Virus record (IMG/VR): IMGVR_UViG_3300044971_004534
From: a virus
Length of the DNA stretch: 64,000 nucleotides
Reading direction: 5' to 3' (one strand)
Shown: positions 3-40,142 of the stretch, in pieces
Numbering within the stretch: the stretch's first letter is position 1
Layout: the number at the start of each line of letters is the position of its first letter
Program-made: the position numbers and the translations under genes
Notes under the pieces: model-generated
Seen by the model: only the letters and a program-made list of their open reading frames with translations
Databases searched by the model: none
Told to the model about the DNA's origin: nothing

Positions 3-3000
3 GTTTCTTGTAATAAATATGCATTTTATAAGAATGATACCAGTGATTACAATATTGATGGCGGAATTAACTATATTAATGACGTTGTTCTTGGCGCTTC
101 AGCTGAAAATGCATTTAATTATACTGGCAATATAGGTTTTGAATTTAGTAAAATAAAACAATTGTTTATTGACTACCTGTCTGTTCCTTCAGGCCTTGCC
201 GTTATGGGATCAGAATTAAACAAGGCCATCAGGCAGATGTTTGAGACTGTTGTTGTTTCTAAAAACTTTGCGCCAAAAGCAAAGATTGGTATAGTCAATT
301 CTCCTGTAGTTCCTTTTAGTATGCCAAATTTTGATTGGAGCACAGCAAGTGAGTCTGAAAGATATAACATTATTGACAAGTGTGCTTCTTTAATCGAGGA
401 TACTATATCAGAAGTAGATTTTATTGCCCTTGACATGAGGCAGCAATTTGAAATTCAAAATAATGTTCAATATGCTTCTTTCTTGTCTTATGCAATATCT
501 GTAGTTAAGCACTTTAAGCAGTGGCTTTCCAGTAAGGGATTAACTAAAAAGATATTCGCAGTTGTATCTAAAGAAAGCTATCAAGATTTTACAGAAGTCC
601 CAAACGACAAGTATACTACATTAATAGCTTCAGTATCAGAATATGTTGATGGATTTGTGTATAAGAGTTTAACTGCTGAAAAATGGATTCAACTATTTGA
701 TGGTGACGCAAATAATGACCAGGCTGCTTTTGATTCACTTTCTTCTATATTAAACAGAAATGTTGGTTCGGCAGATACTGCTACTTACAATGCCATACAG
801 TCTTACAATCTTAGCAACTTGACGACATTAAAGTCTACTGTATCTTTCAATTGCAGATCTTACAATGTCTCAAACAGTAGTGGAGATGTAATATCATTTA
901 GAGCAACCAGAGGACCTAGTTACCCAGAGTGGATGAGTAGCGCAAGACTTATGATGAAATTTAGTCTTTCTGCAGAAAACATAAAGTCATGTGCAGCATT
1001 GGCTGTGCCTCATATGCCAGCTGCAAGTTCTCTATCTGATGAAGACACTATAGTTTGCGTATTTGTAAATACTCAATATGTGTCTAATAGTAGCCTGTTT
1101 ACAATAAGTGGTGCGTCTTGCAATGCAGTTAGAAAAATATCTACAGCAAGATCTGTTTTCTTAAATGCTCTTCAACTACAGCAGTTTGTTAACTATGCAG
1201 TCAGTTATGCGCCAGACGTTTTAGTATTTGATGCACATCAATTTGATGAACCCCTATGGTACAGTACTGCCACTCCAATTGGTACTTGGAATATATTAAC
1301 ATCGCATCCAGGATATGGTCTTGGTCCTGGTTTGGATATAATAGACACATATGTTGCTGCAGCCAGTACTGTTGGTTCCAAGTGTGTACTAGATATCAAT
1401 CCATGCTCTTTTGTTACTTTGCCTGCATCTCAATATCCTTATAGTCTAAATTGCTTTGGCGGAATCATTAAAGAAAATTTTGACAATGGCATTAACATAT
1501 CTATTAGAAGTTTCTTAAATCAAAACTTTGTTGATCTTACTTATCAGTATCATGATGAGCTATTTAGTAAGGGTGTTGATGGCGTTATGTGGAACAGAGA
1601 AGTTTTATCCGATTATGGAGACTTTTCCGCAAATGTTATTGAAAAATTTGCTCGGTATTTAGGATACGAATCTGCAAATGAGTTAGAATTTAAAGAAAGA
1701 TTCCCTTTCCCAGCAGTCTGCGGTTCATCACTTGGAAATTATCTATATAGTGCAGCAGGATTCACTGGGACTTGTGATAGTAGCGCTAATATCAGTGTTG
1801 AAGATTTGGTGTTTAAAATACCGAATTTTGGCACATTATATACACAGGAGATAAAAGACACTTTAATTGAATACTTTGCATTCTGTCATAATTTGGCAAA
1901 TGCAAACATACTGTATATACAAAACAAAATTGATTATTCTTATGGAACTTCAGGATTAAAAGTAATTATCCCCCATGTTGGATCGGATATAATTTATAAA
2001 TGGAAGTCATCTTTAAGTTCTGAAATATTAAACTCAGCCAGCGTCATCACTGTTAATTCTGGTATTGAAAAACAAGCTCGCTCTCGTAGAATAAAAAATG
2101 CCAATACTTCTAATAATACTCAAGAAATACAAAGACCTGGAGCTGCTACTGTAGAAAACTTTGGCTTAGACTTGCTGTCTTCTTCTGATGGTAAAAAGAT
2201 TATAATTAGAAAGTTGCCAAATATATTTAAATATGCAGATACCAGTGTGGCGTCTCAGTGGAATAATTTTGATAATGTTAATGCAACGAATATAGTTGAA
2301 GACGGAATTGTTAGAGAGGACGGGATCAAGGGGCATCTTGCTTCTTGTGTATTTGACTACATAAGAGCTGGTCATGCTGTAATGCTTGACATGCCTAATT
2401 GGTCTAATTATCAAGAAGACGGTGAAACTGTCAATTATTCATATGTGAATAATGACCCGCCCAGAAATGATATGCCATTTGTCTTAAATGTAGTAGATAT
2501 TAACTCTTTAATGTCTACTCTAATATCCACTAGTGCTCGTAATAATAAGCATGCATGGGTTGGAGTGCATTATCCAAACAGAGCCAGAAAGTATGTTCAC
2601 GTTTCTGATTCTGTGGCTTCTTTTGGACAGGAATTCTATAGTGATTCAAATCTTGAGCTAAGTCGCTATGGCTATTCTGGAAGCATGTCAATAGGTCAGT
2701 TTAACTGGCCTATTTTTGGCGTGTATGAATCTTGCATATATAGTGGAATATCTTGTGCTGTTATAAATGATACTAGTTTAGAGAATGGAGATTTTTCAGG
2801 TTTAAGCGTAATAGTTATACCTCACAAGAAATTGTTGAGTTCTATGCAAAAAGATAAGTTAGATCAGTTTAACGGATCAGTAATTTATCTGGAAGATTTG
2901 TATGGTCAAGGTTTGCAGAACTTATGGCATAGCTCTTTAAACACTATTTCAACCAACAATCCTGACTATGTCACACTTTATAACTTGTTGATAAACAAGA

Positions 3001-6000
3001 TAAATGCTGTTGCAGGAAATCCTCCGGTAAAGGTTTCTGTTAATATTGATAATTCTATCAACACTGATAGTGGTAATTATATTCTCAAGCCATTTAGCGT
3101 TTTTGAGGTAAGCGAGTCTCCTGAATCTACTAAGATTGTTGTATGCGTTGCTAATGACAGAAACTGGGCAGATGTTAGAAACAACATAGATGAAAATGGA
3201 ATATATGGACAGATAGAAAGAAATAATGATTTATTGAATATAAGTTCAGCTAATCCTGTCTTCAATACAATATACAGTGGGGATGATTTTTATGTCAATA
3301 ATTCATATCCAGTTTTAGGACAATTTAATTACTATGCTGGAGACCCACCAGCTGGATTTGGAAAAACATTCTCTGTCAGACTTAGCTTTAAAAATAACAT
3401 TTCTCTTTTGAGTGTTACTCAAATATCTTGTAACTACTCAGATAATAATGTTTCTGGAACCAGTCTTTCTTGGTCTAGCGGAGCAAGCGGTCAGTCTGTA
3501 ATTTCAAATCTTATTTCTGATTTTGCATGGTTTGAAATAGAATTTTCATACATTACTCCTAGTTCAAGTTCTTCATCTTCTAGCTCGTCTTCAAGTTCTT
3601 CTTCTATTGATGATGGATGTATTACATGGACAGGACCTGGATGTTTAGACCTAGATGGTGATGGTGTTATAAAAGGATCTGATTTGGCTGCACTGTTTGC
3701 AGCTTATTCAGTATATGATCCTAAAGCAGACTTTAATGGGGATGGTGTTGTAAATAGTTTAGATTTAGGAATTTTGCAAGTAAATTGGGGTAGATGTGTA
3801 ACGTGTCCTAATTGGAATCCAAGTTCTAGCAGTTCTAGTAGTTCCAGCAGTTCTAGTAGTTCCAGCAGTTCTAGTAGTTCCAGCAGTTCCAGTTCCAGCA
3901 GTTCCAGTTCCAGCAGTTCCAGTTCCAGCAGTTCCAGTTCCAGCAGTTCTGAATGCGTTACATGGAACGGACCTGGCTGTCCAGATATGAATGTAGACGG
4001 CAAAGTTGACGGAGTAGACTTGCAAATATGCTTATCCGCTCAGTCTGAATATAATCCCGTTGCAGACTTGGATGGTAATGGAATTGTAAATGGAAATGAT
4101 TTAGGAATATTGATGACCTATTGGGGACAATGTGTAATATGTCCTAATTGGCCTCCAAGTTCGTCTAGTTCTAGCTCCAGTGTATCCAGTTCTAGTTCTT
4201 CTAGTTCAAGCTCCAGTGCATCCAGTTCTAGTTCTTCAAGCTCAAGCTCCAGCTCATCTACAATAGAGTTGTTTAGTATTTTGCAAGCCAGACCTTCAGT
4301 TGGTCCTAAACAGCCATCCTGGTGGTCAACAGCAAGCGTGCATTTCCAATCTTTCAATCCATATGCAACTATTAAGCAAATTTATGAAGCAAATATGGAT
4401 GAATCTGCTCCGGCAATCACAGAGCCATCTTTACTTGAGGTTTACAATGAGCAGTCATCTGGATGTGGGGTGCGTCCATATTACGCAAATAGTCCAACTG
4501 GGTATCCTCCTGGCTATGAGTTTACGTATCGTTCAGATTATGCATGGATGCGCTCTAATGGTAATAGCTTCAAGGAAAGATTTGAAAATGCATTAAATGC
4601 TTGGTTTAACCCAGAACAAAGAGCATTAGTGGCTCATAGATATAGGCCAGATATAGTTATGATAGATTTGCATAATGGTGATGAGCCATTTATCTATAAT
4701 TCTGCAGTCCCAAATGCAAAAACGTCTTTAATGATTGATGATGTTAGTGGTCTTTCTGATTATGATATGGTAAGGCCATTCATAAGAAAATCACACGAAC
4801 TTGGCATGAAATGCACTGCTTATTTCAAGCCGCACTTTGCTTTCCTAAACGAGAGCGTATTCCCTGCTGCACTTACTGCAAACGGGCAAAAAATAAGGGC
4901 AGAAGTTAACTTAACTCAGTCTTGTACTATTCAGAGAAGCATATTCAATGAAAACTTTAAAAACTTCTTGAAAAATTGCATGATTGAAATAGTTACACCT
5001 GAATCCGGTGGTGGACTTGAATGTGATGGAATTTATTGGGATGCAAGTTTGCTAGAAGAGTTATTAGATTTCAGTTCAGACGCAATAGATGTATATGCAA
5101 AATATTTAGGTTATTCTGGATACGACGACCCAGAGTATGTTTTGTGGGCTCAAAGTAACTTCCCATTCCCAAAAACTTCAGGATGGATCGTATCACAAGA
5201 GGATGGCTATATTGGCGGAGGTTCAAGGCCTTCTTACAAGAATGTTTATCCAGATAGTAATTTTGAAGGTTTAGGATATTACAATTTAATTAACAACAAT
5301 GTTGATTTAAATGAAAATCATATTGAGAATTTAAAAACTTTCGTATCAGTAATAAAGAATAGATACTATGAAATTTTAGATGAAATTTCTCAGGCTGTTT
5401 CTGTAGCTAGCAATGGCAATGCAGTTTTCTTCCCGGCAGAATTACCGTCATGGCCGGATCAACCACATGCATCTGTTTCTTCTGAGGTGGCCAGGTACAC
5501 TCATGCAGTAAAAACTGAATTTGCAGTTGAACCAAGAGGCTACAGTGGATTAAGACGAAAGTCAGAGCTTACTCAAGCTGTGTTGTCAAATGAGATATTA
5601 TACTGTGACATACAAAGACCTTCAATGTCTTTGTCTATGACTTTAAATCAAAAATTAGACTTCTTCTCTGGCAATAAGACAGCGATACAGTGGAATCCAC
5701 AGCGAGTGTGGATATCTGATTTACCAATTGGTTCCTCTGGATCTGCAAACACTCTTACCACATTTAATAGTGACCAGTTCTATGTTTATCCAACTGGCTA
5801 TCCTCTTTTCTTTGAAAGAGGGCTTGGAAGAGAGGATAGTATACATGGTTACTTGCGAGCCGTATATCAGATAATGATTAAAAATGGAAACATATTTGAC
5901 TTTAACACCTGGTACGGCGCAGGATGGGTTGGAGATCAGGATCAGTTTATACAAGATGCGACTTTGATTAATAATGATGGGTACTTCAACAATCCAGACA

Positions 6001-9000
6001 TGGGTGTTTCTCCTGGAAATACTTATGCTTTCTGGCGTAAGGCAATATATCACGCTAGAAAGATGAAAGAAGAAATTATTAAAGAAGGTTTAATATTTAA
6101 TATTCGTGAGGCATATTCTTGGGCAGCCATTCATGTTCCAGTACGCGGTCGCATAGGTATAGATGCACCTGTTTCTTGGGGTCAAGATTATGTAATAGGA
6201 CAGAATAAAACTATCAACAGGACTGTTACTACTAATGAAAACAATCAAAATTGGGGTCAATTTTGGTGGCCAATTTTGGGGGCAATGCAGGCATTTGAAG
6301 ATAGATTTATTCCTTATAGTTTGTTGTTGGACGAGCAGCTCTATAATGGTGAGCTAAACGGAATTAGTGTTATAATTATACCTCATCGTGAATGGCTGAC
6401 TGTCACTGATCAAATAAGGTTGCTGCAATTTGAGACTGCTGGCGGCAAAGTCGTGTATATGGATAATGCGTTCTCCGATTCTGGTGGAGGATCTTCTGAT
6501 CCAAGAAGAAAAGGTCGTTGGTATTCTTATGAAGATCAAAATTCTGAGTCTATCAAATTTATAAACTATGTAAAATTAATTGCTGGAGAGCCAACATTCA
6601 GCGGATCTGTTACTAGTTATGAGTATGACGATGGCACTTATCGTCATAAGCAGGCGGGCTGGTTTAAATTATCTGAGCAAGACTCAGACGGCAAGCTGCT
6701 AGTTGGAGTTCATTTATTAAACGACATGTCTTGGATGGATATGCGCAAAAATGCTTCTATGCTAAGTGGTATCGATCCAAGATTCAATCAATTAGACCCA
6801 GTGACTGTTCCAGTTAAGGGATTAATGGATCAAGATTTATTTGGCTGGGGCGAAGATTGGAGAAATTGGTACAACGAAAACTTTGATCCTACTAATCCGC
6901 CACACGCCTCAATATTACCTTATCCTATTCCCAACCCTGATCCATCTGCAAATGTAAAGCAATATTTCTACGATCCACACGCTGAAAACATGTGGGGCAA
7001 GCCATTGATTGGATATGGACAATATTGGTCTGCAAATCTCCGTTTAAATTTGCCATCAGATTTTAGAATTAACAAAGTTTATAAATTCTATGTTGATCAA
7101 GAAAACGATCCAAACGATGCTGGTATTACAAAGAAGGCATTTAACTATAGAGCTGCTGCTGAGTCTACAGTCATGTCGTTAAGTAATATGCCATATCTGC
7201 CTAGACTAAATAGTATAAATACTTCTAATACGGCTAACGTTATAAATTATGGAGCTATAGGCGATGGTGTTTCTGATGATACTCAAGCATTTATCGATGC
7301 AATTGCATCTGGATTTAGCGCAATATATATACCTGCTGGTAAATATAGAATCACTTCTTCTTTAAATATTAGTGATTCAGTTAATATAATTGGAGATATC
7401 GGATCTAGTATATTAATGTCTGACATTCAAGGCGGAAATGCTTTGTTTAATATTGTCCCAGAAGGTTCCGCAGTAACCTATTCTTATGAAGGTCAAATAT
7501 TTAGTGGTCAAAAAGAATTCCAACTTTCTAGCACCATAGGCTTAAGCGTAGGTCAAAAATTAATTTTCAAAATTGGACATGAGTCTGCAAGTTCACTTTC
7601 GTTTGAATATGCCTACGATATAGAAATACAATCTATTAATGGAAATATTATTACATCTGCTAGCGGTGCTCCGTTTGCATCTGATAAATTGATTCATAAA
7701 ATCGACGTGTATGCTATGTCTCCTCATGATTTAGTCATAGAGGGAATAGATATTACTAGTTATGATGAAAATTCTTCTTATTATGCATTTAATTTACTTA
7801 ATTGCATTAATGTTAATTTAAGAAATATTAATATATTTAATTCTTCTTTCCATGGTATAAGGATTAATAAATCTTCAAAAATTAGTATTGAAAGATGTGT
7901 ATTTGACAATATTGGTGCTGGTAGTGGTGCAATGCCAAGTGCAACAGCTATAACAGTCACCTATGCTTATGATCTTAATCTTTACAGGAATTATGTTAAG
8001 AACAGTCTTAGTGGATTATTGAATCTATTTAAATCAAGAAAAATCAATGGATCATATCTGTGGGTAAACAATTGTCAGGATGCATGCTCTTTTGCTTACA
8101 TAAGAGATATATTAGAATTTGAAGTAACTAATGTTTATATAAACAATAAAGACTTAATATTTGTAACAGATTTAGGAGTATCAAGTCCATACAGTACAAG
8201 TAATGTATATCTGCTGCAAAAACCATTTGAATTTAATGTTTCTAATCATAGTGGAATTTTGCGCATAGAAAATAGGGTTTTCAATGGCGTTACGTCTGGA
8301 GTGATTACTATTCCAGTCAATCCTCCAATTGTCTCAAGTTCTTCTGGAAATGAATCTTTAGATGTAATTGCATGGGGTGCTGGTTCTGATCCTTCCAAAT
8401 ATCAAAGAGCAAATAGTTGGAATGATTTATATGTCACTGTTCCTAGAAGCTATGCGCACAAAGACCAGTCATATATACCGTATATTGATAATCCAGAAAA
8501 GGTAGAAATACAAGAGGGCAATACCTTTGTTCTTGATGCTAATGGGAAAATGTATTCTTCTGGAAGCACCAAATTTAACATGAGACCGCTTCCGGCTAGC
8601 ATAACTGATAATACAGTAATAGATTTTTCATCATCTTTATATCAGTTAGGTTTAATTATATCAGATAATGGGACGGGAGACTTGAGTGTTCTTGTACATG
8701 GTAGAAAACAGTATAACTTGTGCAGAACATTAAAGTTTAATAATAACAGCAATGAAATATTTTATGTTAATGCAAATGGAAAAATAGGTAGAGTCAACGT
8801 ATTTAGTCAGCAAGAAATTGATGGAATAGTTTATGGTCACAACGATGTATGGTCAGATGGAAATCCACTGTATCAAATTTCATGCAACAGTATACAATTT
8901 ACACAAAACGGAAAGCTTGGTATATTTGGAGCTTTGTGGAGTTGGGAATTTGGAGCATATAATATAGCTCAAGTTTATAATTTAGAAACAAAACAAAATG

Positions 9001-21700: not shown

Positions 21701-24700
21701 GTTATGGTCCAAACGGGAATTTAGAAACTTCATCAATCAGTATGGTGTATATGAAGATAGCACCTATATCACCAGTTAGTCCAGTTTTTGGATCTTTATT
21801 TGCAGAAATAAATTATGACAAAAGTGGTCAAGTATTTAGGCAAAGAGTTGCTGGTATAGACTTTGTATATACTGGCGGCAACAACTTGGCTGTAACATCT
21901 TCTAACTTACCGGATACTGGTTCTGGTTCTGTTAATACTGGAAATGATCCAGGTAATGGTCAGCTTGGATCTGGCTTGCCGTCTGGTGGAAATAGCTCTG
22001 GCAGTAACAATCAGTCTAATTCTTTTGGATCTGTTGGCGGTGGTACTTCTAATAATCCACCTGGATCAAACCCATCCTCTTCTCTTTTCCCATTCCCAGA
22101 AATATTTGCTGAGATGGAAAATGCAACATCAAGACTTTTGGTAAACACTGCTTTTAGCAATGAATGCTATATATATGATGCCTTGGTAACTGATGTTGAT
22201 TATAGGTGGAGAAAAATAGCTAATATGAATTTAAGAAGAGCTATGCATGTATCTGAATTCGTTGATGAAAAAATATATTCAATAGGCGGACTTGCTGGCT
22301 ATACAAGTGGAGAAGCGAATGCAGAAGCAACAGTTTTGCTAACTGACACGTGTGAGGTTTGGAACTCATCCGAAAATAGGTGGACTACTGCAAGAAAATG
22401 TTTGTCAAAACGATTTGGATGCCTATCTTGTGCTGATAATAGATTTATCTATGTAATTGGTGGATTTGAGACTAGGCTTAAGGGTTCTATATCTCCTAGC
22501 GGTCAGACTGTGCAAACCAGAGTCCCCTATGTGAGTAGGCGTGTTGAGCGATATGATACTATCTCTAATACATGGCTATCTTTATCTCCAATGCCAGTTT
22601 TTGACTCTATGGGTAATCAAGTAGAAATACCTGCAGAAAATACGTTAACTGACAGAATAGGTAATGATGATGTAAATTTTGATCAATATGGTTGTGCGCT
22701 AGGAAAAGCCTACATAAAAGACAATAAAATTATAGTTTTGTGTGGTGCAAGAAAAGTAGATGACAAATTAAATGTTGAGAAATATAATAACGCTATTTTG
22801 GTGTATGATATAAGCAATAATAGCTGGTCTGTTAGCGATAGATTTTCTGCAGAATTGGCTTCAGAATTGTGCAGACTATATCCAGTTGTGTGGGAGCAAG
22901 ATGAAAATATATACATATACGGAGGGTCTTCATCTATTGTAGAAAATGTAAATGCTCAAGTCGGTGATGAAGAGTTTATTATAGAAAAGAATAAGGTTTT
23001 TGGTTTACAAAATTCGTTTGGCATTCCTTTATCCGATTTAGTCAATGATTTAACTATAAATAATATATACAGAGCAGATTATTTGTTTGGTAATTTACCA
23101 AAGTCTAGAGACCAAGTGTCTTTTGCAAATATTGATGGAGAAGGTGTATATTTGTTTGGTGGAAGAGTATTTGCTCAAAATGAAAACTTAGGAACCAATG
23201 CAACTCGTACTGCAGAAAGAATTGTTAATTTAAACGAATTGTATGTTGTAGAAAACATGGTAAAACCTTCATTTGGATTTAGTAATGCAGGTTGCGCCTC
23301 TGATGGTCTGAGATTCATATACATTACTGGAGGAACTACGACTAATCAGTCTCCTGGATTTGTAAGGTTGGAAATTGAGGTATACGGAGAGCAAACAGAA
23401 CAAATTAATTCTGAAAGATTTAGTGCAGTAGAGCCAGCCGATGCAACTGTAAGACTTGATGGATTCTCTGGAGTTGATTTAAAAATAAGTGCATATGATG
23501 ATGAAGGTGAATATGTTGTTGGCGATTTGCAGGTAGAAATATCTGGACTTCTTTCTTATGGCACAGGAGATGACGATCTTGAAGGTGGGGGAGCCTCAAT
23601 AGGAGGCAACCAAAGAGCTCCTACTTTTAATAGGAGAAGAAGACGAAAGGGCACTAGAATTTATCCTATTGTATTGAGTCCTTACAGGGTAACCTTGAAA
23701 AATGGTATTGGTTATTCTAGACTTGAGGGTAGAAGTGAAGATGTGCTAAAAAGCATTACTGAAATACAGGAAATATTAAATGCTGACTTATCAGCGGATC
23801 AAGCTGTTTTAGGAACAGCTTCCGAGTTGCAATTAAAACAGGGCAGTGTAAGGTTCCCTTATAGGATAAGTATAGTTGGTCGTGTAACTGATGATTTTTA
23901 TTTTGGCAAAACAGCATACACTTCAACAGAGGATCAAAATACAGAGCAAGAAGTATTCTTGCCAGAAAATGAGATTAATGACGTAATTGCAGATGCTGGT
24001 GACTTTGGTAATGCCATCGTAATGCCTCCAATGCTACCAGCTTATGCAAGTGCTTCTTCTCCGTTACCAATTGCTGACTATGGTCCAGTCCTTACTTGCA
24101 GCGCAGTTGGTGTCATAGGTCCCATTGGTGACGTAGATTTATTTGCATTTATTCCACCAAAATCTGGAGTTTATACTGTTACGATAGAGCAGAGAGGTTT
24201 TTCTCAACTACTTCCCCTTGTGTCGGTATTTAATAGTTCACAAAGTCCATATCCAATTAATGGTACAGCGTCAAATGAAATAAAGTTTGATAGTTTTGGA
24301 TATTCTACGGATGGAAGAACTGCTAACTTAGAGCTTTTGAAAGATGTTGTATACTATTTCCAAGTTTCTACATATGCTGGAGCTGAAAGTCAAGATGTTA
24401 ACAAAGTCGGAGCTTATAGGATAAGATTTACTATTCCTATAGCAATTATACAAAATCAAAACACAAGTGGTTCTAGCAGCAGCTCTAGCAGTAGCTCTAG
24501 TAGCAGCTCTAGTAGCAGCTCTAGTAGTAATCAAGGCGGCAACGGATCTAGTAGTAGTTCTAGCAGTAGTTCTAGCAGTAGTCAAAATTCAGGAGAAGTG
24601 GTTTCTTTTAACATTTTTGAATATTTAACAGATAGTACGGTGTCAGGTCTAAGCGATTCTTGGTCTTCTGTTTTAAGAGATTTTTATAATACTTATTTTA

Positions 24701-27700
24701 GATTTTTACTAGTAAATGGCGGTTATAGCAGTCAATCATTACAGGTTGCCATAGATACAATAAATTCAATAGCATCTTGTCCTTTTAAATGTCCCACTTG
24801 TGTTGAGTCTACTGGAGGAAATACACCTTGTGAGTCAGGATCTTTGGATTGTACGGGTTCTGACAACACTACTTGCGTAACCATATTGGGTTTGGGAAAT
24901 ATAGTATTACCAAGCAATTCAGCCACAAGTTCTAGCTCAAGTTCTAGCTCAAGTTCTAGCTCAAGTTCTAGCAGTTATTCAGATAGTCAATATGACCCTT
25001 ATACTGAAGCTTCAGATGGCACTACTCAGATAGAACCATATCAGTCTGATATACCTCCATTCGAATTACCTCCTGCAGGTGCAAACGAATTGATTATTGA
25101 AGATTTGCCATTTGAAAGATTATCTATTCCTGCACGAGTTATATTTGCCGGTGAAAGCGCAGCTCCATTAACTGAGGGTGATAGTCCAATAGTTCAATAC
25201 TATTCTGATATTGATTGGATTCCAGAAATTAATACTGACCTATTCACTGGAATTGATGCAGCTTCAAATATAAAGTTAAAAGTAAAAAAGATAAAACAAA
25301 GCATACCATTTGGTTCATCTCCTGTTTATGATGGAATCAACGATGCTGCAAGAATTATAAAATCTACTTTTGATTCAGACGAAATAATTAAAAATATATT
25401 ATTACTAAGTGATAATGATGAAAACACTAGTGGCATTTCTCCATTACAAGCTATAGAAAATGTTGACGCTATTGACGGGAAGCGTAAGGTAAAAGTAAAT
25501 TCATTTAACATAAGTACTTTTTATCCAGTTACCATAAGTGCTCAGGCTTCTAGAGCAAATATGTCTGGTGTCGGTGATGTAATCCGTCAAACTGGTGGAG
25601 CTAATTTTGCTTTGTTGTCATCCAGCCTATTTGATGAAGGTGTAGAATTTGCCTTCACTGGATCTGCTGGATCTGCTGGTGCTGGTAGACTTTCTTTAGT
25701 TGTAGATTTTGATCAAGACATTATTGTCAATACTGTTAATCCTGGAGTTGAATTAGGTAAAGCTGATTTTATCTCTTACGCAATATCGTATTCAAGTGAT
25801 GGAGAAAATTATACTAATATTCCTGATGAATTTGACGCTGGGTCGGCATGTCAAGTTGGTGCAAAATGCAGATTTATAAAGATAGACTTTGAGGGCGTAA
25901 TAGACTTCGATAAAATTGAGAACAATTTTGTTGCAGATCCATATGATCCATATAGTGATTTTGTAAAGATTAGTAAATATGATTTGTCTAAAATTAGAAG
26001 TATAGCATTTAATGTTTCTGCGGCAGATGATAACTATATATACTTAGAAAAGATTCCATTAATATCTGCACCTCAGCAAATAGTAATATTTGTTAACTGG
26101 GACGGTCCTTCAGACTCAGAGATATCAGCAGGAGCATCTACTGTTGATAGCGGCGACTGGAAGGATTATAGTAGAGATGCACAAAACGTTGCAATGGGTT
26201 CTGGAAAAGTTATAATACCTATAAGATACAAAGACAAATTTAATGTTGTCAAAGAAGAATTAACACCAATAACTCCATTCATATTTGAGTTACCACATGG
26301 GTCCGTGCATAAAAATGCCGTTATTGAAGTTTTTGATGCATCTGGACTGACTATAAATCCTAATGACTACATGATAGATAGAGATGCTGGCTTAATAAGA
26401 TTCCAATACTCTTTTTATGGCCAAAAGATTTATGTAGCAGTTGAAGAAGAGAAGAGTATTAAAATAGGAGTAAAAGCATCGTTTGGAGTAAAGCCTGGAA
26501 ATATTACTATTCAAAGCATTGGGTACATGCTTACTGTAAATGAGGATCTTGCTCCAGCAGAAACAAATCAGCCTCCACTCGCAGTAAATGTAAGAATTAA
26601 TCCAATTATAGTATACCCTTACACTAACGTAACAGCTTCTTACCGTTATTTAGATCAAGAAGGTGATGTGGAGGACGTTGATAAGAGAGTAATAAAGTGG
26701 TATAAGAACGGTATAGAAATTCCTCAGCTTGAAAATATAATTTCTTTTAATGATCTGCATAACAGCGAAGATGTGACTTATTCTTTCTATTATACATCAA
26801 ACTATGCAGAAATAGAGGCAATGTCTCCTGGTGTTACTGCAGAATTGCTTGCTAGTTTTGCTAATGAAAGAATTTTTGAGCCTGGGGATCAGATATATTT
26901 TACAGTTCAGGTTCACGATGGCAATCAGTTAAGCGGCGCGTTTAGAAGTCCAACTGTTACAGTTTCGGACTATCCGGTTGCTCCATCTGCCATTACTATA
27001 AGATCTAGATATGCAAGTGCAGCTGAAATACAGCTTTCTGATGGTGGTAATCAAGGAGGTGGTGCAGGTGGTGGCGGAGACCCCGCTAATTTTGGAGAGC
27101 TTGCTAATGAGTTTACTAACAGAACAAGATTATTCTTAGATTTTGATCTGTTCTCTCCTGCAGTGTTTAATAAAGCTGTAGTAACTTGGTACGTAATTGA
27201 TAATGCCGGTAATATAATTACTTTTAAATCTGGCAGAATATCTGACACTCAGTCTGGCATGTTCTCAATTGGACCTTCTGACACTAATATATTAAATATT
27301 GAAGCGGTAAAAATTGGTCATCAAATATATGCAGATATGTTTATTCCAAAAAATTCTGCTCCTAGTATTCTTAATGATATTACAATAAGAAGTAATACAG
27401 TCATAATAACTAATATAGTTCCAAGAGCTTCAAATGTTGTTTTGGAAAAACTGGTTGATGCAGGTACGTTTATATCTTATTGGAGATTTGCTTATACTTT
27501 TGAAGACGAAGATGTATATCAAAATGAGCCCAATCAGTCTGACAGGAGCATATTGAGATTGTATAAAAAGCTTCCAGCTGAAGACACCTTTACCTTAGAG
27601 ACAAGAATAACAGATCCCCTTAATTTCTTCATTCCTTCTGATTACTATGATGAGGGTGCTAAAATTTATCTTGAAGTTATACCTTTTGACAATGTTGCAT

Positions 27701-27762
27701 ACGGAACATCAGTAAAAAGCGAAATAGCCGAGTGGAGAAGGCCAACAGGTCCGCCGCTATAA
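15778..27762 (+). CDS. Giant multidomain adhesin/fibre-like protein (3,994 aa)
   Basis: Uninterrupted ORF. It contains a MIDAS-like FVLDHSGSMSW, FN3-like ends (DADYYYAIYPIDSNNRLGSPS; KIAYYAIVSRDRYGRMSDP), LamG, a Gly/Asn/Ser/Pro linker, Kelch blades, a polybasic RRRRRK, a PPC domain, poly-Ser tracts, a second vWA-like segment, a discoidin-like segment and C-terminal repeated Ig-like modules. Confidence 0.85.
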   Translation: MINFTKCSLTGSSFKLLYDENSSTLDSQLSYLAVNFTNSDSFWVPYRTSYNALNDVSMKLGRVSMASSLADSAESSYGQLDFSVNIKDEGDYVAAFKVSKEDGITLCSSVSLMHSMLPGKNVTSYVILNDRYGIPNEFAFDRKTEVFEFQHNMSQIAQDAVWITIEFPALVSGEYSFSIRLSGSESFDFINIDSANFIVEGFTIFKKTNFTSDGLVLRNQVTSNSSVFSSYRISSIEDSHPLSKVSFLNTLQQGEARISGLIGMQSGNTFYSLEKSVFFKLSDFSENERSVTAIIPYSISVNENDLDKICIIFSEHYDKSLWHFSYSADSSGVAGKTFKLVGEELELQEKTISLNLFESDQKYRPITSGQDSDDSKNVVVIEPPVGVPLNINSVTDSSISESVKDNFALLSDDNGNYYALNLPDRHQAFVLDHSGSMSWSDAGGERFKLINEIVDRFEQIYPGKVSYSLTTFKGTPVIVEWFGAIENNVSDSNDPDSVRTGFLQGKYTNFRGCHIVRKKSIAPSSPTDGDIVFNGFDKVLYDTDLEEDADYYYAIYPIDSNNRLGSPSIIRAKTRANEIVKGIKSLSGDEFIGTGIRKDDRSVFIYHMNEGYGSRIYDFSGNKMNLVIPDAAKNSVIWLDESESPAIDIDSDIGKGSGLRLTGRNSYCQWSGLCDKDFAGLNLSLWIYLFQNITPREKNIISIYNAFGQIDFKIGSESIFIRLNGTTVGVLSHVFLTESWNHISINVDAEWNTCSLYVNGVLYDSFSFGYYSSAISNFFNESIVKVVLGEEFENGFKGKVSEISLRNEAISLEEIEQESLFIPKDNGDRLLRLSWFTNLDNTDHKIVINYKQESGPLRLLDEDIAGPANYGRYQGDSTIGNPPNSPPGQIAQSDLKARICYGDDIGPVSAEDGITVFDSSIDGNLNECTVIQNFSSSIEKKYRFSVDAPGFRNFFRIFRINANGEQSYPDDSGLLEYTPKDYENALLPSSEVSQVENVSVVLGNRKIRLKWDVPVDSNIESVIIYYADEPFESDFIERSDNFPQKYPVFAGIKSQNSFTHFYGRVRDSQRKSAAPGSFQNTLTAAIVESEDDLDNGKIAYYAIVSRDRYGRMSDPIFVNGTPSAASNDAGIPPEGIIAARAYGVDYNTVSLRWINPVSASRFFDIEGWLDDNVVLYFRVTDIYGRRIDEQGNFEIKFRFNDFLNGIVFTNIGGGDDTKVASIIGNFDTETRLPVVENISFSELISYNLSNLSNGWTRITVNTNNASLSDRNWADAVYTEVSMVFVRNNNVGEDPIFSFSTQPIRIYLRHPLKLDLVTNDAVFYNPQSYSIFVPTYAAGSPICDIVYNGGNTDIGGEFLVYGAYNGRALPYTFTVNASYKNSPLPAGSTATIDIFEDSEPTTGVSQDGAYANLRGGFSGIIGANPELGTPASQAGLNSEEIVVRDSYPLSTTIQSVSNQIIFEDSPSGKESFGIGEIRVPGSRSFGRVFASVRVGLFYRSAGFYIGFMPTLYVKMNASAPNPDGEDVATQYAYAYVIDPNRFRVSMFDSFSNNFSIENYAQPVPDGTTVLWRLNKLRNGIDRPFYSTSQRSISGSAVDKTIDGISQNVVFGPASNINSSIIQADSDSVLLIPEEYIITATVSYNGVTSSAAQSVCIYPVTVNPDQVLPAISQTSFYFAGKSFGKTDQYTQSVYADGEDFSVLEIVKDPRLLLGEEGDARIDDIKAFCKCYNADGASNGIENASLTVLPTNQLIEIKANKLPDCQSSGLSSYIRGRIEILHGSTLNYYVGSSGKILVSSSEIGSDTALVEVRSSNRSDIVVRANTFIPLKWKYHTKLEADPGPLSPVFCNFINSGFGNSVYHNVTMSASTSVIINGTERSVFSDGGIASGNPPKMIKFVEPLYMQFAYILKNGQKVNGELIEVDGASIYEFVFAIKFAGLPVPDGTEVKFYKCGSNDLILESSVGYTVTKQEIGPWSYGPNGNLETSSISMVYMKIAPISPVSPVFGSLFAEINYDKSGQVFRQRVAGIDFVYTGGNNLAVTSSNLPDTGSGSVNTGNDPGNGQLGSGLPSGGNSSGSNNQSNSFGSVGGGTSNNPPGSNPSSSLFPFPEIFAEMENATSRLLVNTAFSNECYIYDALVTDVDYRWRKIANMNLRRAMHVSEFVDEKIYSIGGLAGYTSGEANAEATVLLTDTCEVWNSSENRWTTARKCLSKRFGCLSCADNRFIYVIGGFETRLKGSISPSGQTVQTRVPYVSRRVERYDTISNTWLSLSPMPVFDSMGNQVEIPAENTLTDRIGNDDVNFDQYGCALGKAYIKDNKIIVLCGARKVDDKLNVEKYNNAILVYDISNNSWSVSDRFSAELASELCRLYPVVWEQDENIYIYGGSSSIVENVNAQVGDEEFIIEKNKVFGLQNSFGIPLSDLVNDLTINNIYRADYLFGNLPKSRDQVSFANIDGEGVYLFGGRVFAQNENLGTNATRTAERIVNLNELYVVENMVKPSFGFSNAGCASDGLRFIYITGGTTTNQSPGFVRLEIEVYGEQTEQINSERFSAVEPADATVRLDGFSGVDLKISAYDDEGEYVVGDLQVEISGLLSYGTGDDDLEGGGASIGGNQRAPTFNRRRRRKGTRIYPIVLSPYRVTLKNGIGYSRLEGRSEDVLKSITEIQEILNADLSADQAVLGTASELQLKQGSVRFPYRISIVGRVTDDFYFGKTAYTSTEDQNTEQEVFLPENEINDVIADAGDFGNAIVMPPMLPAYASASSPLPIADYGPVLTCSAVGVIGPIGDVDLFAFIPPKSGVYTVTIEQRGFSQLLPLVSVFNSSQSPYPINGTASNEIKFDSFGYSTDGRTANLELLKDVVYYFQVSTYAGAESQDVNKVGAYRIRFTIPIAIIQNQNTSGSSSSSSSSSSSSSSSSSSSNQGGNGSSSSSSSSSSSSQNSGEVVSFNIFEYLTDSTVSGLSDSWSSVLRDFYNTYFRFLLVNGGYSSQSLQVAIDTINSIASCPFKCPTCVESTGGNTPCESGSLDCTGSDNTTCVTILGLGNIVLPSNSATSSSSSSSSSSSSSSSSYSDSQYDPYTEASDGTTQIEPYQSDIPPFELPPAGANELIIEDLPFERLSIPARVIFAGESAAPLTEGDSPIVQYYSDIDWIPEINTDLFTGIDAASNIKLKVKKIKQSIPFGSSPVYDGINDAARIIKSTFDSDEIIKNILLLSDNDENTSGISPLQAIENVDAIDGKRKVKVNSFNISTFYPVTISAQASRANMSGVGDVIRQTGGANFALLSSSLFDEGVEFAFTGSAGSAGAGRLSLVVDFDQDIIVNTVNPGVELGKADFISYAISYSSDGENYTNIPDEFDAGSACQVGAKCRFIKIDFEGVIDFDKIENNFVADPYDPYSDFVKISKYDLSKIRSIAFNVSAADDNYIYLEKIPLISAPQQIVIFVNWDGPSDSEISAGASTVDSGDWKDYSRDAQNVAMGSGKVIIPIRYKDKFNVVKEELTPITPFIFELPHGSVHKNAVIEVFDASGLTINPNDYMIDRDAGLIRFQYSFYGQKIYVAVEEEKSIKIGVKASFGVKPGNITIQSIGYMLTVNEDLAPAETNQPPLAVNVRINPIIVYPYTNVTASYRYLDQEGDVEDVDKRVIKWYKNGIEIPQLENIISFNDLHNSEDVTYSFYYTSNYAEIEAMSPGVTAELLASFANERIFEPGDQIYFTVQVHDGNQLSGAFRSPTVTVSDYPVAPSAITIRSRYASAAEIQLSDGGNQGGGAGGGGDPANFGELANEFTNRTRLFLDFDLFSPAVFNKAVVTWYVIDNAGNIITFKSGRISDTQSGMFSIGPSDTNILNIEAVKIGHQIYADMFIPKNSAPSILNDITIRSNTVIITNIVPRASNVVLEKLVDAGTFISYWRFAYTFEDEDVYQNEPNQSDRSILRLYKKLPAEDTFTLETRITDPLNFFIPSDYYDEGAKIYLEVIPFDNVAYGTSVKSEIAEWRRPTGPPL
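17590..18230 (+). other. LamG / concanavalin-A-like lectin domain
   Basis: Motifs are LSLWIYLFQ, ISIYNAFGQIDFKIGSESIFIRLNG, SWNHISINVDAEWNTCSLYVNGVLYDS and FKGKVSEISLRNEAIS. Confidence 0.55.
22150..23390 (+). other. Kelch-type beta-propeller repeats
   Basis: Blades are IYSIGGLAGY, RFIYVIGGFE, YDTISNTWLSLSPMP, IIVLCGARK, VYDISNNSWSV, IYIYGGSS, GVYLFGGRV and FIYITGGTT. Confidence 0.65.
24061..24440 (+). other. Bacterial pre-peptidase C-terminal (PPC)-like domain
   Basis: Motifs are GPIGDVDLFAFIPPKSGVYTVTIE, VYYFQVSTYAG and GAYRIRF. Confidence 0.5.
24466..24582 (+). repeat. Two poly-Ser runs split by NQGGNG
   Basis: In-frame AGC/TCT/AGT codons (SGSSSSSSSSSSSSSSSSSSSNQGGNGSSSSSSSSSSSS). Confidence 0.95.
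24928..24975 (+). repeat. Poly-Ser tract with a 12-nt tandem unit
   Basis: The unit agttctagctca occurs about 4 times, in frame. Confidence 0.95.
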
Positions 27763-39893: not shown

Positions 39894-40142
39894 ATGGAAT
39901 ATAAGTGTAGATTTGAAAGATTGGATAAGATAAAAACAGATGATCTAAAAAAGATCAGCCTGTGTACTGAGTGTCATAGTTTTGATTGTAGTAACCCGAT
40001 ACAGAACGTTACAATAAGCGTTTTTGGTATTAATAAAACTATAAGGGCGTATGTTACTCCTAATAACACCTATGGTGTTCAGGATTGCGAAGGTTTTAGC
40101 TGTCACAGCTCAATAGAGGAAGAAGATGACTCTGAAGATTAA
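39894..40142 (+). CDS. Small Cys-rich protein with an acidic tail
   Basis: Contains CTECHSFDC and CEGFSCH. The C-terminus is EEEDDSED. Overlaps the start of the polymerase gene. Confidence 0.5.
   Translation: MEYKCRFERLDKIKTDDLKKISLCTECHSFDCSNPIQNVTISVFGINKTIRAYVTPNNTYGVQDCEGFSCHSSIEEEDDSED

What the first reader, a model, noticed from the sequence alone, without database searches (positions are those of the whole stretch)
3..27762. Translationally coupled three-gene block dominated by two giant mosaic proteins (>4,760 aa and 3,994 aa)
Seen: frame 3 is open from nt 3 to 14291, so gene 1 starts upstream of the window. Gene 2 starts in the TAATG at 14289-14293. Gene 3 starts in the ATGA at 15778-15781 and runs uninterrupted to 27762. 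These ORFs occupy about two fifths of the window. Each is a chain of unrelated recognisable folds separated by poly-Ser or Gly/Asn/Ser/Pro linkers. Gene 1 has duplicated hydrolase-like modules, dockerin-like modules, a tailspike-type beta-helix, and WD40/PD40-like and RCC1 propellers. Gene 3 has a MIDAS-like DHSGS, FN3-like segments, LamG, a Kelch propeller, a PPC domain, a discoidin-like segment and C-terminal Ig-like repeats. Inference: this is a virion-surface or secreted fibre/adhesin-depolymerase complex much larger than ordinary tail fibres. I cannot map the combination to a described fibre system.
Basis: partly seen in the sequence, partly recalled or inferred. Interest (0 to 1): 0.8.

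Follow-up and report, generated by a model that had tools for sequence, protein, structure and literature searches.

The report
Giant phage surface-enzyme genes flanking a protease
A very large (probably about 400 kb) uncultured phage carries a conserved three-gene block: a 7,798-residue chain of sugar-degrading and binding domains, a previously unnoticed chymotrypsin-type protease, and a 3,994-residue multi-domain protein. The block is most likely a host-surface attachment and degradation apparatus, and its first protein would be about the largest phage protein on record.

Summary
The ORF observation is correct. Frame 3 is open from nt 3 to 14291. Gene 2 (496 aa) starts in the TAATG and gene 3 (3,994 aa) in the ATGA. 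Three other assemblies match the window exactly over nt 4291-25781. Their gene calls give gene 1 a full length of 7,798 aa.

Confirmed domains:
- Gene 1: three dockerins, a pectate-lyase-type beta-helix, an RCC1 propeller, and a real internal duplication (E 4e-39) of a glycoside-hydrolase-like module.
- Gene 3: LamG and Kelch.

VWA is weak. The WD40/PD40, FN3, PPC, discoidin and Ig-repeat calls are unverified.

It is a chymotrypsin-fold serine protease with conserved His-Asp-Ser motifs.

The order giant gene, protease, ~3,950-aa gene recurs in every sufficiently long related metagenomic contig. No homologue was found in cultured phages or in GTDB genomes.

Gene 3 is collinear and 45-69% identical across the family, so it is not shuffled. 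Gene 1 is modular and is split in relatives.

Best reading: a host-glycan binding and degrading apparatus, probably on the virion, with the protease maturing the giant chains. Virion location and cleavage are untested.

Giant proteins in huge phages (up to 7,694 aa) are already published, so this is a new variant of a known kind.

The parts
3..14291 (+). Gene 1, the 3' 4,762 codons of a 7,798-aa ORF. It is a chain of enzyme and binding modules joined by poly-Ser linkers.
   Evidence: The frame is open. Full length is 7,798 aa in two other assemblies and 7,788 aa in a third. The sequence is identical in three other assemblies.
888..3560 (+). GH-like module, copy A (gene 1 aa ~296-1186).
   Evidence: It is a paralogue of copy B at 24% identity, E 4e-39. 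There is no direct Pfam hit.
3606..4157 (+). Dockerin modules 1 and 2 (aa 1202-1273 and 1317-1385), separated by a poly-Ser tract (nt 3822-3950).
   Evidence: PF00404 E 5e-10. NF041540 dockerin_GC E 2e-8. Duplicated DxDGDG Ca-loop motifs and flanking Cys pairs are visible.
4260..7202 (+). GH-like module, copy B (aa 1420-2400): a TIM-barrel-like part followed by a GH42M-like alpha/beta domain.
   Evidence: Only 39 relatives exist in 1.84 billion proteins. Of 32 hits scanned, 10 carry GHL6, and others carry DUF4015, GHL10 or Glyco_hydro_42M. The AF2 model is poor (pLDDT 52.6). Its weak Foldseek hits are mostly TIM-barrel glycoside hydrolases, best E 1e-3.
7203..8372 (+). Right-handed beta-helix of pectate-lyase / tailspike type (aa 2401-2790).
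   Evidence: PF12708 E 2e-14 and Beta_helix E 5e-3. Weak tblastn matches to minor tail, tail fibre and pectin lyase genes in 86 cultured-phage records.
8373..10022 (+). Unassigned beta-rich region (aa 2791-3340).
   Evidence: No Pfam or PDB match. This region and the RCC1 region are absent from relative L001.
10023..11852 (+). RCC1-type beta-propeller (aa ~3341-3950).
   Evidence: PF25390 E 4e-51 and RCC1_2 E 2e-38.
12423..12650 (+). Dockerin module 3 (aa 4141-4216), preceded by a poly-Ser tract at nt 12261-12422.
   Evidence: PF00404 E 1e-8. The array is reported.
12843..14288 (+). Conserved C-terminal domain of gene 1 (aa 4281-4762). It is the only part of gene 1 retained in all relatives.
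   Evidence: tblastn gives 41-73% identity in L001-L004. No Pfam or PDB hit.
14291..15781 (+). Gene 2, 496 aa: a chymotrypsin-fold (PA clan, S1-like) serine protease with a ~195-aa N-terminal extension. The candidate triad is H207 (nt 14909-14911), D264 (15080-15082) and S357 (15359-15361).
   Evidence: AF2 gives pLDDT 74, pTM 0.78. Foldseek finds 517 PDB hits at E<=1e-3, and the top 50 are all trypsin-like proteases. BFVD hits are viral 3C/trypsin-like proteases. Conserved motifs are AVTPxHV, GDxAIxLLxxPLP and GDS.
15778..27762 (+). Gene 3, 3,994 aa: a conserved multi-domain protein.
   Evidence: ORF confirmed. It is collinear with 3,929-3,983-aa orthologues.
17038..17577 (+). VWA-like segment with the MIDAS motif DHSGS (aa 432-436, nt 17071-17085).
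   Evidence: VWA_2 E 5e-5 at 24.3 bits, below the cut-off of 27, and only the N-terminal half of the profile is matched.
17767..18222 (+). LamG / concanavalin-like lectin domain (aa 664-815).
   Evidence: PF13385 E 8e-9.
22075..23457 (+). Kelch beta-propeller (aa ~2100-2560), preceded by a Gly/Asn/Ser/Pro linker.
   Evidence: PF24981 E 1e-12 and Kelch_6 E 6e-12. Weak resemblance to the YjhT/NanM mutarotases.
23629..23655 (+). Near-invariant polybasic motif NRRRRRKGT following a Gly-rich stretch in gene 3. It is a possible processing site (inference only).
   Evidence: Most columns of the motif are invariant in the 6-sequence alignment A6.
24472..24975 (+). Two poly-Ser tracts (aa 2899-2935 and 3051-3066) flanking a Cys-rich segment of gene 3.
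   Evidence: Short-read contigs end at nt 24955, inside the second tract.
27785..30352 (+). Three glycosyltransferase genes (GT2, GT1, GT2) directly downstream of gene 3. Their link to the block is inferred only.
   Evidence: Pfam and PHROGs. The same order follows gene 3 in relative L007.

Best explanation
The block is a conserved module of a lineage of very large uncultured phages, with contigs up to 401-406 kb.

Gene 1 (7,798 aa) strings polysaccharide-active catalytic modules together with binding and assembly modules on flexible poly-Ser linkers. The catalytic modules are two to three GH-like TIM barrels, a pectate-lyase-type beta-helix, and a SASA-type esterase in the N-terminal part as seen in a relative. 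The binding and assembly modules are three Ca-dependent dockerins, an RCC1 propeller and a conserved C-terminal domain.

Gene 3 (3,994 aa) is a conserved scaffold or adhesin with VWA-like, LamG and Kelch modules.

Gene 2 is an active chymotrypsin-type serine protease made at a fixed ratio with both giants.

I infer the following. The three products form one apparatus that binds and digests the host's capsule, slime or cell-surface glycans so that the phage can reach the envelope. It is most likely carried on the virion as oversized fibres or 'hair'. The protease most likely cleaves the giant chains at linkers into working pieces, or trims them during assembly.

Shown: the ORFs, the domain identities listed, the protease fold with its conserved triad, conserved synteny, and the absence of secretion signals. 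Inferred: complex formation, virion location, substrates, and proteolytic processing.
For: - ORF integrity and the 7,798-aa length.
- Glycan-active and glycan-binding domains. A SASA esterase lies in the orthologous N-terminal part of the relative.
- Gene 2 has a protease fold and an H-D-S triad, with H207 and the G355-D356-S357 motif invariant in all 16 aligned homologues and D264 present in 15 of 16.
- The order giant gene, protease, ~3,950-aa gene, with overlapping or closely abutting stop and start codons, recurs in every sufficiently long related contig.
- Across the family, the only conserved pieces are the C-terminal domain of gene 1, gene 2 and gene 3. That pattern fits an interacting core.
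- In relatives gene 1 is broken at domain or linker boundaries. A TGA plus 64-nt spacer interrupts it in L003/L007, and the frame changes inside a poly-Ser tract in L001. The modules therefore work as separate polypeptides elsewhere, as processing would produce here.
- There is no signal peptide or transmembrane segment, so the proteins leave the cell only in particles or at lysis.
- In the relative, three paralogous beta-helix proteins of tailspike style lie just upstream of gene 1.
- Al-Shayeb et al. 2020 (PMC7162821) report huge-phage proteins up to 7,694 aa, some tentatively annotated as structural.
Against: - No capsid, portal, terminase, tail or baseplate gene was recognised next to the block. 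The upstream ORFs of the relative have no PHROG or tblastn hit.
- The window downstream holds glycosyltransferases and replication genes.
- Gene 3 shows the reverse of the usual fibre pattern: a variable N-terminus and a conserved remainder.
- No trimerisation, coiled-coil or known anchor domain was found, and no cohesin partner for the dockerins.
- The GH assignment is transitive and rests on a poor model (pLDDT 52.6).
- The protease matches no Pfam S1 model and gave no hhalign signal against trypsin.
- No cleavage site has been demonstrated.
Confidence: 0.5

Rival explanations
1. The proteins are lysis-released soluble enzymes, not virion parts. They accumulate in the cytoplasm and are freed at lysis. 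Outside the cell they digest capsule, biofilm matrix or cell debris, which frees progeny and prevents their re-adsorption. In this reading the dockerins and the protease act in the extracellular milieu.
For: - There is no signal peptide and no recognisable virion-anchor domain.
- The block sits next to glycosyltransferase and replication genes rather than recognisable structural genes.
- Gene 3 lacks the conserved-N, variable-C pattern of fibres.
- Paired Cys residues flanking each dockerin suggest folding in an oxidising, extracellular setting.
Against: - Committing 37 kb, about 9% of a ~400-kb genome, to diffusible enzymes is costly.
- The beta-helix type is typical of tail proteins in cultured phages.
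- Tailspike-style paralogues lie immediately upstream in the relative.
- Fixed-ratio coupling of three genes suggests an assembled complex.
Confidence: 0.2
2. The apparatus is virion-borne, but the protease is itself a weapon rather than a maturation enzyme. In this reading gene 2 rides on the fibre complex and cuts host surface proteins such as an S-layer, outer-membrane proteins or proteinaceous capsule, while genes 1 and 3 stay intact.
For: - The triad is intact and conserved.
- The ~195-aa N-terminal extension could dock gene 2 to the conserved C-terminal domain of gene 1.
- No conserved cleavage motif was identified at module borders.
Against: - The different splits of gene 1 in relatives show that separate polypeptides are functional.
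- A near-invariant polybasic site in a flexible stretch of gene 3 looks like a processing site.
- No precedent for an S1-type virion enzyme turned up in the literature I searched.
Confidence: 0.15
3. The element is not a phage. The ~400-kb element would be a plasmid-like or other extrachromosomal element, or part of a small cellular genome, and the giants would be cell-surface adhesins of that organism.
For: - No hallmark virion gene was seen in any stretch I could read.
- Giant dockerin-bearing proteins with peptidase domains are known from Omnitrophota bacteria (bioRxiv 10.1101/2023.11.21.568195).
Against: - A 78%-identical relative is a 223.6-kb IMG/VR viral contig.
- The replication genes match phage families: split DnaE-type polymerase, UvsX-like recombinase, DnaB, primase, Cas4-type exonuclease and clamp loader.
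- All ORFs of at least 150 aa but one lie on one strand.
- There are no tRNA genes, ribosomal genes or secretion signals.
- GTDB genomes contain no homologue of gene 2.
Confidence: 0.07
4. The giant ORFs are assembly artefacts: chimeric joins or collapsed repeats at the poly-Ser arrays.
For: Short-read contigs end inside the poly-Ser arrays. Some distant relatives show frame breaks.
Against: - Three other assemblies are base-for-base identical over 21.5 kb, arrays included.
- Module order is collinear in relatives at 45-78% identity.
- Gene 1 is called at 7,798 aa in two other assemblies and 7,788 aa in a third.
Confidence: 0.02

Closest known systems
Giant predicted proteins of huge phages (Al-Shayeb et al. 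2020, Nature; PMC7162821)
   Same: Both are metagenomic phages over 200 kb with predicted proteins of thousands of residues. That paper reports proteins 'up to 7,694 amino acids', some tentatively called structural.
   Different: That paper gives no domain anatomy, partner genes or mechanism. Here the giant is 7,798 aa, is paired with a second giant of 3,994 aa and a dedicated S1-like protease, and the trio is conserved as a unit.
Virion-associated polysaccharide depolymerases and branched tailspike systems (for example Klebsiella jumbo phage phiKp24, PMC9700779; review PMC5380687)
   Same: Both use right-handed beta-helix enzyme domains of the pectate-lyase type. Both carry several different glycan-active modules in one phage, and paralogous beta-helix proteins lie nearby.
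   Different: In the known systems each enzyme is a separate trimeric protein of 500-1,300 aa attached through conserved N-terminal adaptors. Here many modules are strung on single chains by poly-Ser linkers, together with dockerins, propellers and a separate protease. No adaptor domain was recognised.
Dockerin-type giant proteins of Omnitrophota (West-Roberts et al. 2023, bioRxiv 10.1101/2023.11.21.568195)
   Same: Both combine dockerin/EF-hand modules, glycan-binding and glycan-degrading domains and an associated peptidase that is proposed to cut the giant precursor. Both have a proposed role in attaching to and digesting another cell's surface.
   Different: The Omnitrophota proteins are bacterial, exceed 30,000 aa, are membrane-anchored, and carry in-chain C39 or S8 peptidase domains beside a secretion locus. 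Here the genome is phage-like, there are no transmembrane segments, and the protease is a separate chymotrypsin-fold protein.
Cellulosome (dockerin-cohesin enzyme assembly)
   Same: Both have type-I-like dockerins with duplicated Ca-binding loops, attached by Ser-rich linkers to glycoside-hydrolase-like and lyase-like modules.
   Different: No cohesin-bearing scaffoldin was detected in gene 3 or elsewhere. The dockerins are internal and lie in the same chain as several enzymes.
Polyprotein plus chymotrypsin-like protease of RNA viruses (3C/3C-like)
   Same: Both pair a PA-clan protease with very long multi-domain chains. Foldseek matches gene 2 to 3C-like and trypsin-like viral proteases.
   Different: Here the protease is a separate gene with a Ser nucleophile and S1-like motifs. 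No cleavage sites are known, and processing is only inferred.

Membership tests
PA-clan / S1-like serine protease (gene 2) | Chymotrypsin double beta-barrel fold | tested here: met
   The AF2 model has pLDDT 74 and pTM 0.78. Foldseek finds 517 PDB hits at E<=1e-3. The top 50 are all trypsin-like proteases, with target TM 0.4-0.5 over ~220 columns. The BFVD search gives the same kind of hit.
PA-clan / S1-like serine protease (gene 2) | Catalytic His, Asp, Ser in that order, within the family's signature contexts | tested here: met
   H207 sits in AVTPxHV (compare TAAHC). D264 sits in GDxAIxLLxxPLP (compare DIALLKL). S357 sits in an invariant GDS followed by strand-turn-strand (compare GDSGGP). 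H207 and the GDS motif are invariant in all 16 sequences and D264 is present in 15 of 16. The 3-D geometry of the triad could not be measured.
PA-clan / S1-like serine protease (gene 2) | Significant match to a curated S1/trypsin sequence model | tested here: not met
   No Pfam, PHROG or NCBIfam hit. hhalign against bovine trypsin gave E 0.39. PDB sequence search gave nothing relevant.
PA-clan / S1-like serine protease (gene 2) | Proteolytic activity | not testable with these tools
   This needs a recombinant enzyme assay and an S357A control.
Type I dockerin | Pfam/NCBIfam dockerin model above its curated cut-off, with duplicated Ca-binding loops | tested here: met
   PF00404 scores 39.8 and 35.7 bits against a cut-off of 22.9. 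NF041540 scores 34.4 against 29. DxDGDG / DxNGDG pairs are present in all three modules.
Cellulosome-like assembly | A cohesin-bearing partner for the dockerins | tested here: not met
   No cohesin family hit in genes 1-3 at E<=1 on segments. Other genes of the genome were not examined.
Phage tailspike / depolymerase | Right-handed parallel beta-helix catalytic domain | tested here: met
   PF12708 scores 54.1 bits against a cut-off of 27. There is weak similarity to tail proteins of 86 cultured phages.
Phage tailspike / depolymerase | Presence in the virion, attached through an N-terminal anchor, as a trimer | not testable with these tools
   No anchor domain was recognised. Proteomics or cryo-EM is needed.
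Glycoside hydrolase (GHL6 / GH42-like architecture) | Direct match to a GH family model | tested here: not met
   No Pfam hit on either copy, even at E<=1. No PDB sequence hit.
Glycoside hydrolase (GHL6 / GH42-like architecture) | TIM-barrel fold and homologues that carry GH models | tested here: inconclusive
   Of 32 distant homologues scanned, 10 carry GHL6, and others carry DUF4015, GHL10 or GH42M. The Foldseek hits are mostly TIM-barrel GHs, but the best E is 1e-3 on a model with pLDDT 52.6. Catalytic residues were not identified.
VWA domain with MIDAS (gene 3) | DxSxS motif and a full-length VWA model above its cut-off | tested here: inconclusive
   DHSGS is present at aa 432-436. VWA_2 scores 24.3 bits against a cut-off of 27, and only profile positions 3-52 of 107 are matched.
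RCC1 / Kelch / LamG modules | Curated model above its cut-off | tested here: met
   PF25390 scores 175 bits against 150. RCC1_2 scores 129.8 against 22. Kelch_6 scores 45.5 against 25.3 (all). Laminin_G_3 scores 36.2 against 27.6.
Huge-phage genome | Viral hallmark genes (capsid, portal, terminase) on the same contig | not tested
   Only replication-type phage families were seen. A relative is listed in IMG/VR. The rest of the 401-kb contig could not be fetched.

The most novel reading that the evidence does not exclude
Genes 1 and 3 would be polyprotein precursors of a self-assembling, phage-glycosylated fibril coat. The gene 2 protease would cut them at linkers into a set of dockerin-tagged enzymes and binders. 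These would re-assemble, cellulosome-style, on the gene 3 scaffold on the particle. The poly-Ser linkers would be O-glycosylated in the host cytoplasm by the phage's own glycosyltransferases, using nonulosonic (sialic-acid-like) sugars made by the phage's NeuB / cytidylyltransferase / Maf-like cluster (window 27785-30352 and 51518-56699). This would be a bacterial-virus counterpart of the glycosylated fibrils of giant eukaryotic viruses.
Probability: 0.12. Interest if true: 0.85.

Novelty: new variant of a known kind. Interest (0 to 1): 0.58.

Why it matters
If the reading holds, a bacterial virus spends about 37 kb of coding sequence on one host-surface apparatus. That apparatus would be built from a ~7,800-residue multi-enzyme chain, a ~4,000-residue scaffold and a dedicated chymotrypsin-type protease.

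- It would give the giant 'structural?' proteins of huge phages their first concrete anatomy and a testable mechanism.
- It would add proteolytic maturation by an S1-like enzyme to the known ways of building phage host-recognition organelles.
- It would supply a compact set of new glycan-active modules. The GH-like module has only 39 detectable relatives among 1.84 billion proteins.
- The neighbouring sugar-synthesis genes make phage-directed protein glycosylation directly testable.

Tried and rejected
- Megablast and blastn of the block, and tblastn of the gene 3 N-terminal half and of gene 2, against 50,697 GenBank phage records: no match.
- PHROGs on genes 1-3: only a low-complexity hit.
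- Word-indexed homologue search with gene 1 aa 1-1186: nothing scored. I think the giant ORFs are probably not indexed, or the candidate list was saturated.
- GTDB genome scan for gene 2: none, so no host clue.
- PDB sequence and profile searches on ten segments or alignments: nothing usable. PPC, FN3, Ig-like, WD40/PD40 and the second VWA-like stretch therefore stay unverified.
- Pairwise test of the three C-terminal 'Ig-like' segments of gene 3: z below 2.4, not significant.
- hhalign of the gene 2 family against trypsin: no signal.
- AF2 of GH-like module B: low confidence, so its fold search is only weak support.
- Upstream ORFs of the relative (1,519, 212, 541, 303, 1,245, 1,228, 783 and 568 aa): no structural annotation by PHROG, Pfam or tblastn beyond a LamG domain and weak pentapeptide hits.
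- Alternative genetic code as the cause of the split in the relative: rejected. Two different stops plus an AT-rich spacer and a new ATG mark a true gene boundary.
- Moraphage lineage paper (PMC12619734): no link could be established.
- Promoter and terminator scan: no more sites than shuffled sequence.
Full report
**1. Observation**

The window is about 35% GC, and all ORFs of at least 150 aa but one lie on the + strand. Frame 3 is open from nt 3 to the TAA at 14289-14291, which is 4,762 codons. Gene 2 runs 14291-15781 (496 aa), with its ATG inside TAATG. Gene 3 runs 15778-27762 (3,994 aa), with its ATG inside ATGA. With about 7% stop codons expected at this composition, such open frames cannot be chance. 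In a relative the two non-coding frames carry 244 and 430 stops per 10 kb, against 3 in the coding frame. The only tandem repeats are the poly-Ser coding arrays.

The exact gene 2 protein occurs on 12 public contigs. Three of them are base-for-base identical to window nt 4291-25781, arrays included:
- NCBI JBFDSL010005901.1, 179,655 bp
- JGI Ga0453138_0000025, 161,456 bp
- JGI Ga0334988_0000001, 401,021 bp

On those contigs gene 1 is called as 7,798 aa in two assemblies and 7,788 aa in a third. The window therefore holds only the last 61% of it. A further contig of 406,100 bp carries the same gene 2, so the genome is probably about 400 kb. Short-read contigs break exactly at the poly-Ser arrays. 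Tract lengths are thus the only soft spot in the assembly.

**2. Anatomy of gene 1**

Pfam and NCBIfam confirm three dockerins at aa ~1202-1273, 1317-1385 and 4141-4216. Each has duplicated Ca-loop motifs and flanking Cys pairs. They also confirm a pectate-lyase / rhamnogalacturonase-type beta-helix at aa 2412-2639 (E 2e-14) and an RCC1 propeller at aa ~3341-3950 (E 4e-51).

The 'duplicated hydrolase-like modules' are a genuine duplication: aa 296-1061 against 1426-2250, 24% identity, E 4e-39. They have no direct family hit.

A profile built from the two copies finds only 39 relatives in 1.84 billion proteins. Of 32 of those scanned, 10 carry GHL6, and others carry DUF4015, GHL10 or the GH42 trimerisation domain. 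An AlphaFold model of copy B is poor (pLDDT 52.6). Its weak Foldseek hits are mostly TIM-barrel glycoside hydrolases, including GH29, GH31, GH13, Cwp19, GH35 and GH20. I accept 'glycoside-hydrolase-like' as probable but not proven.

The WD40/PD40-like call for aa 2791-3340 and the identity of the C-terminal domain (aa 4281-4762) are unverified. The beta-helix shows weak tblastn similarity to minor tail, tail fibre and pectin lyase genes in 86 cultured-phage records.

**3. Gene 2**

This gene had no annotation anywhere: no Pfam, PHROG, NCBIfam or PDB sequence match. It has 17 homologues, all metagenomic and unnamed. A profile search adds none.

AlphaFold with 16 sequences gives a usable model (pLDDT 74, pTM 0.78). 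Foldseek returns 517 PDB hits at E<=1e-3, and the top 50 are all trypsin, elastase, thrombin or plasmin-type proteases. In BFVD the best hit is an uncharacterised Caudovirales protein aligned over 438 columns. It is followed by 3C-like and trypsin-like viral proteases.

The alignment shows three conserved contexts, in the canonical order His-Asp-Ser:
- AVTPxH207V, compare TAAHC
- GD264xAIxLLxxPLP, compare DIALLKL
- an invariant G355-D356-S357 followed by strand-turn-strand, compare GDSGGPVVC...GIVSWG

H207 and the GDS motif are invariant in all 16 aligned sequences, and D264 is present in 15 of 16. Gene 2 is therefore a divergent but apparently active chymotrypsin-fold serine protease with a ~195-aa N-terminal extension. 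I regard this as the most informative new result.

**4. Gene 3**

Confirmed are LamG (aa 664-815, E 8e-9) and a Kelch propeller (aa ~2124-2274, E 1e-12), which weakly resembles the NanM/YjhT sialic-acid mutarotases. DHSGS at aa 432-436 lies in a sub-threshold, half-length VWA match. FN3, PPC, discoidin and Ig-like repeats could not be verified.

Orthologues of 3,929-3,983 aa are collinear over the whole length. Identity is 45-69% in most 150-aa windows even in the most distant members, and the first 300 aa are the least conserved at 21-38%. Gene 3 is thus a stable multi-domain protein, not a shuffled mosaic. Its conservation pattern is the reverse of a classical receptor-binding fibre. A near-invariant polybasic motif NRRRRRKGT follows a Gly-rich stretch at aa ~2618-2626.

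**5. Conservation and context**

Every sufficiently long related contig shows the order giant gene, gene 2 homologue, ~3,950-aa gene, with stop and start codons overlapping or closely abutting. The contigs are L001-L004, L007, L013-L017 and L019-L022.

Only the C-terminal domain of gene 1 is conserved in all relatives (41-73% identity). The RCC1 region and the preceding region are missing in L001. The 78%-identical relative is IMGVR_UViG_3300042326_002445, 223,646 bp. There gene 1 is two genes, up to 5,380 aa and 2,587 aa, separated by a TGA, a second stop and a 64-nt AT-rich spacer, at the point equivalent to window aa ~2150. In L001 the frame changes inside a poly-Ser tract.

The relative's N-terminal 3,200 aa correspond to the part missing from the window. 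They contain a further beta-helix-like region, a third GH-like copy and a SASA-type carbohydrate esterase. Three paralogous beta-helix-like proteins of 1,228, 783 and 568 aa share an N-terminal motif and lie just upstream of it. Further upstream ORFs have no recognisable family.

None of the proteins has a signal peptide or transmembrane segment.

Downstream of gene 3 come three glycosyltransferases, then a phage-type replication module: exonuclease, helicases, DnaB, split DnaE-type polymerase, UvsX-like recombinase, primase, Cas4-type nuclease and clamp loader. After that comes a nonulosonic-acid cluster: two Maf/DUF115-like proteins, a cytidylyltransferase, NeuB, a HAD phosphatase and GT1. 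No cultured phage and no GTDB genome carries a relative of gene 2.

**6. Mechanism**

Shown:
- two intact giant ORFs and a protease gene, tightly packed and conserved as a unit
- glycan-active and glycan-binding modules
- Ca-dockerins
- no secretion signals

Inferred:
- The three products form one apparatus for binding and degrading the host's surface polysaccharides.
- It is most likely mounted on the virion, given the tailspike-type beta-helix, the tailspike-style neighbours in the relative, and the cost of 37 kb of coding sequence.
- The protease matures the giant chains. In support, the modules exist as separate polypeptides in relatives, the linkers are flexible, and gene 3 has a conserved polybasic site.

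I put about 0.5 on the glycan-targeting, virion-borne reading and about 0.3 on proteolytic maturation within it. The rivals are lysis-released soluble enzymes (0.2), the protease acting on host surface proteins rather than on the giants (0.15), a non-phage element (0.07) and an assembly artefact (0.02).

**7. Comparison and novelty**

Al-Shayeb et al. 2020 already noted huge-phage proteins 'up to 7,694 amino acids', some tentatively structural (PMC7162821). The existence of such giants is therefore known, and at 7,798 aa this one is marginally longer.

Multi-enzyme tailspike arrays such as phiKp24 use separate trimeric proteins. Omnitrophota dockerin-type giants combine dockerins, glycan-active domains and peptidase domains proposed to cleave the precursor, but they are bacterial and membrane-anchored. 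Cellulosomes share the dockerin logic, but no cohesin was found here.

What is new:
- the resolved anatomy
- the conserved trio with a stand-alone S1-like protease
- the contrast between a modular gene 1 and a fixed gene 3
- the possible link to phage-encoded glycosylation

I rate it a new variant of a known kind, with interest 0.58.

Noticed in passing
window 51518-56699: A nonulosonic-acid (sialic-acid-like) sugar cluster. It holds two MptE/DUF115 Maf-like proteins (sub-threshold, E 1e-6; PHROG calls one an alpha-2,3-sialyltransferase), a CMP-sugar cytidylyltransferase, NeuB (E 5e-52), a HAD phosphatase and a GT1 glycosyltransferase. Maf-type enzymes O-glycosylate Ser/Thr of flagellins (my own knowledge, not checked here), so the poly-Ser linkers of genes 1 and 3 are candidate substrates.
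   Followed up: partly
window 27785-30352: Three glycosyltransferase genes (GT2, GT1, GT2) follow gene 3 directly. The same three follow it in the 78%-identical relative, at L007 21921-24488.
   Followed up: partly
window 40126-43369: The DnaE-type DNA polymerase III alpha subunit is split into two ORFs that overlap by 8 nt (432 aa and 650 aa, the second with a TTG start). They cover consecutive parts of the same PHROG profile. This could be a split gene, a programmed frameshift or a sequencing error.
   Followed up: no
window 23629-23655 (gene 3 aa ~2618-2626): A near-invariant polybasic motif NRRRRRKGT after a Gly-rich, probably disordered stretch, conserved across six family members. It is a possible protease processing site.
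   Followed up: no
L009 104-520 (relative IMGVR_UViG_3300042326_002445, start of gene 1a): The N-terminal ~135 aa of the relative's gene 1a contain 'VWVGDSGTPVF...LYSAWGG...WFDALKQYIF' and are followed by poly-Ser. This looks like the C-terminal barrel of an S1 protease (GDSG motif, then a terminal helix). The window phage's own N-terminus could not be read.
   Followed up: no
L003 2184-2250 / L007 687-751; L001 3647-3711: Gene 1 is one ORF in the window. In the 76-78% relative it is split by TGA, TAA and a 64-nt AT-rich spacer. In a 45-50% relative the frame changes inside a poly-Ser tract.
   Followed up: yes
L010 1503-9262: Three paralogous proteins (1,228, 783 and 568 aa) share an N-terminal motif (LAGxRGxAPAxxF...VWGxE) and repetitive 'FKNCTF'-type beta-helix-like repeats. 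The first ends in a LamG domain. They lie immediately upstream of gene 1a in the relative.
   Followed up: partly
contigs Ga0334988_0000001 (401,021 bp) and one of 406,100 bp: The exact gene 2 protein sits on two contigs of about 401-406 kb, and near-identical variants sit on contigs of 281 and 301 kb. The genome is probably about 400 kb, well above the 223.6-kb IMG/VR relative.
   Followed up: no
window nt ~12368-12394 and 24955: Short-read (Logan) contigs of the same phage and of a 98%-identical one begin and end inside the poly-Ser coding arrays. These arrays limit short-read assembly, so their exact lengths may vary. The 7,798 against 7,788 aa difference fits this.
   Followed up: yes
L023 13387-14349 (about 3.4 kb beyond the window's 3' end): An NDP-sugar epimerase/dehydratase gene and a deoxynucleoside-monophosphate kinase lie just outside and at the edge of the window. 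This adds to the sugar-metabolism content of this genome region.
   Followed up: no
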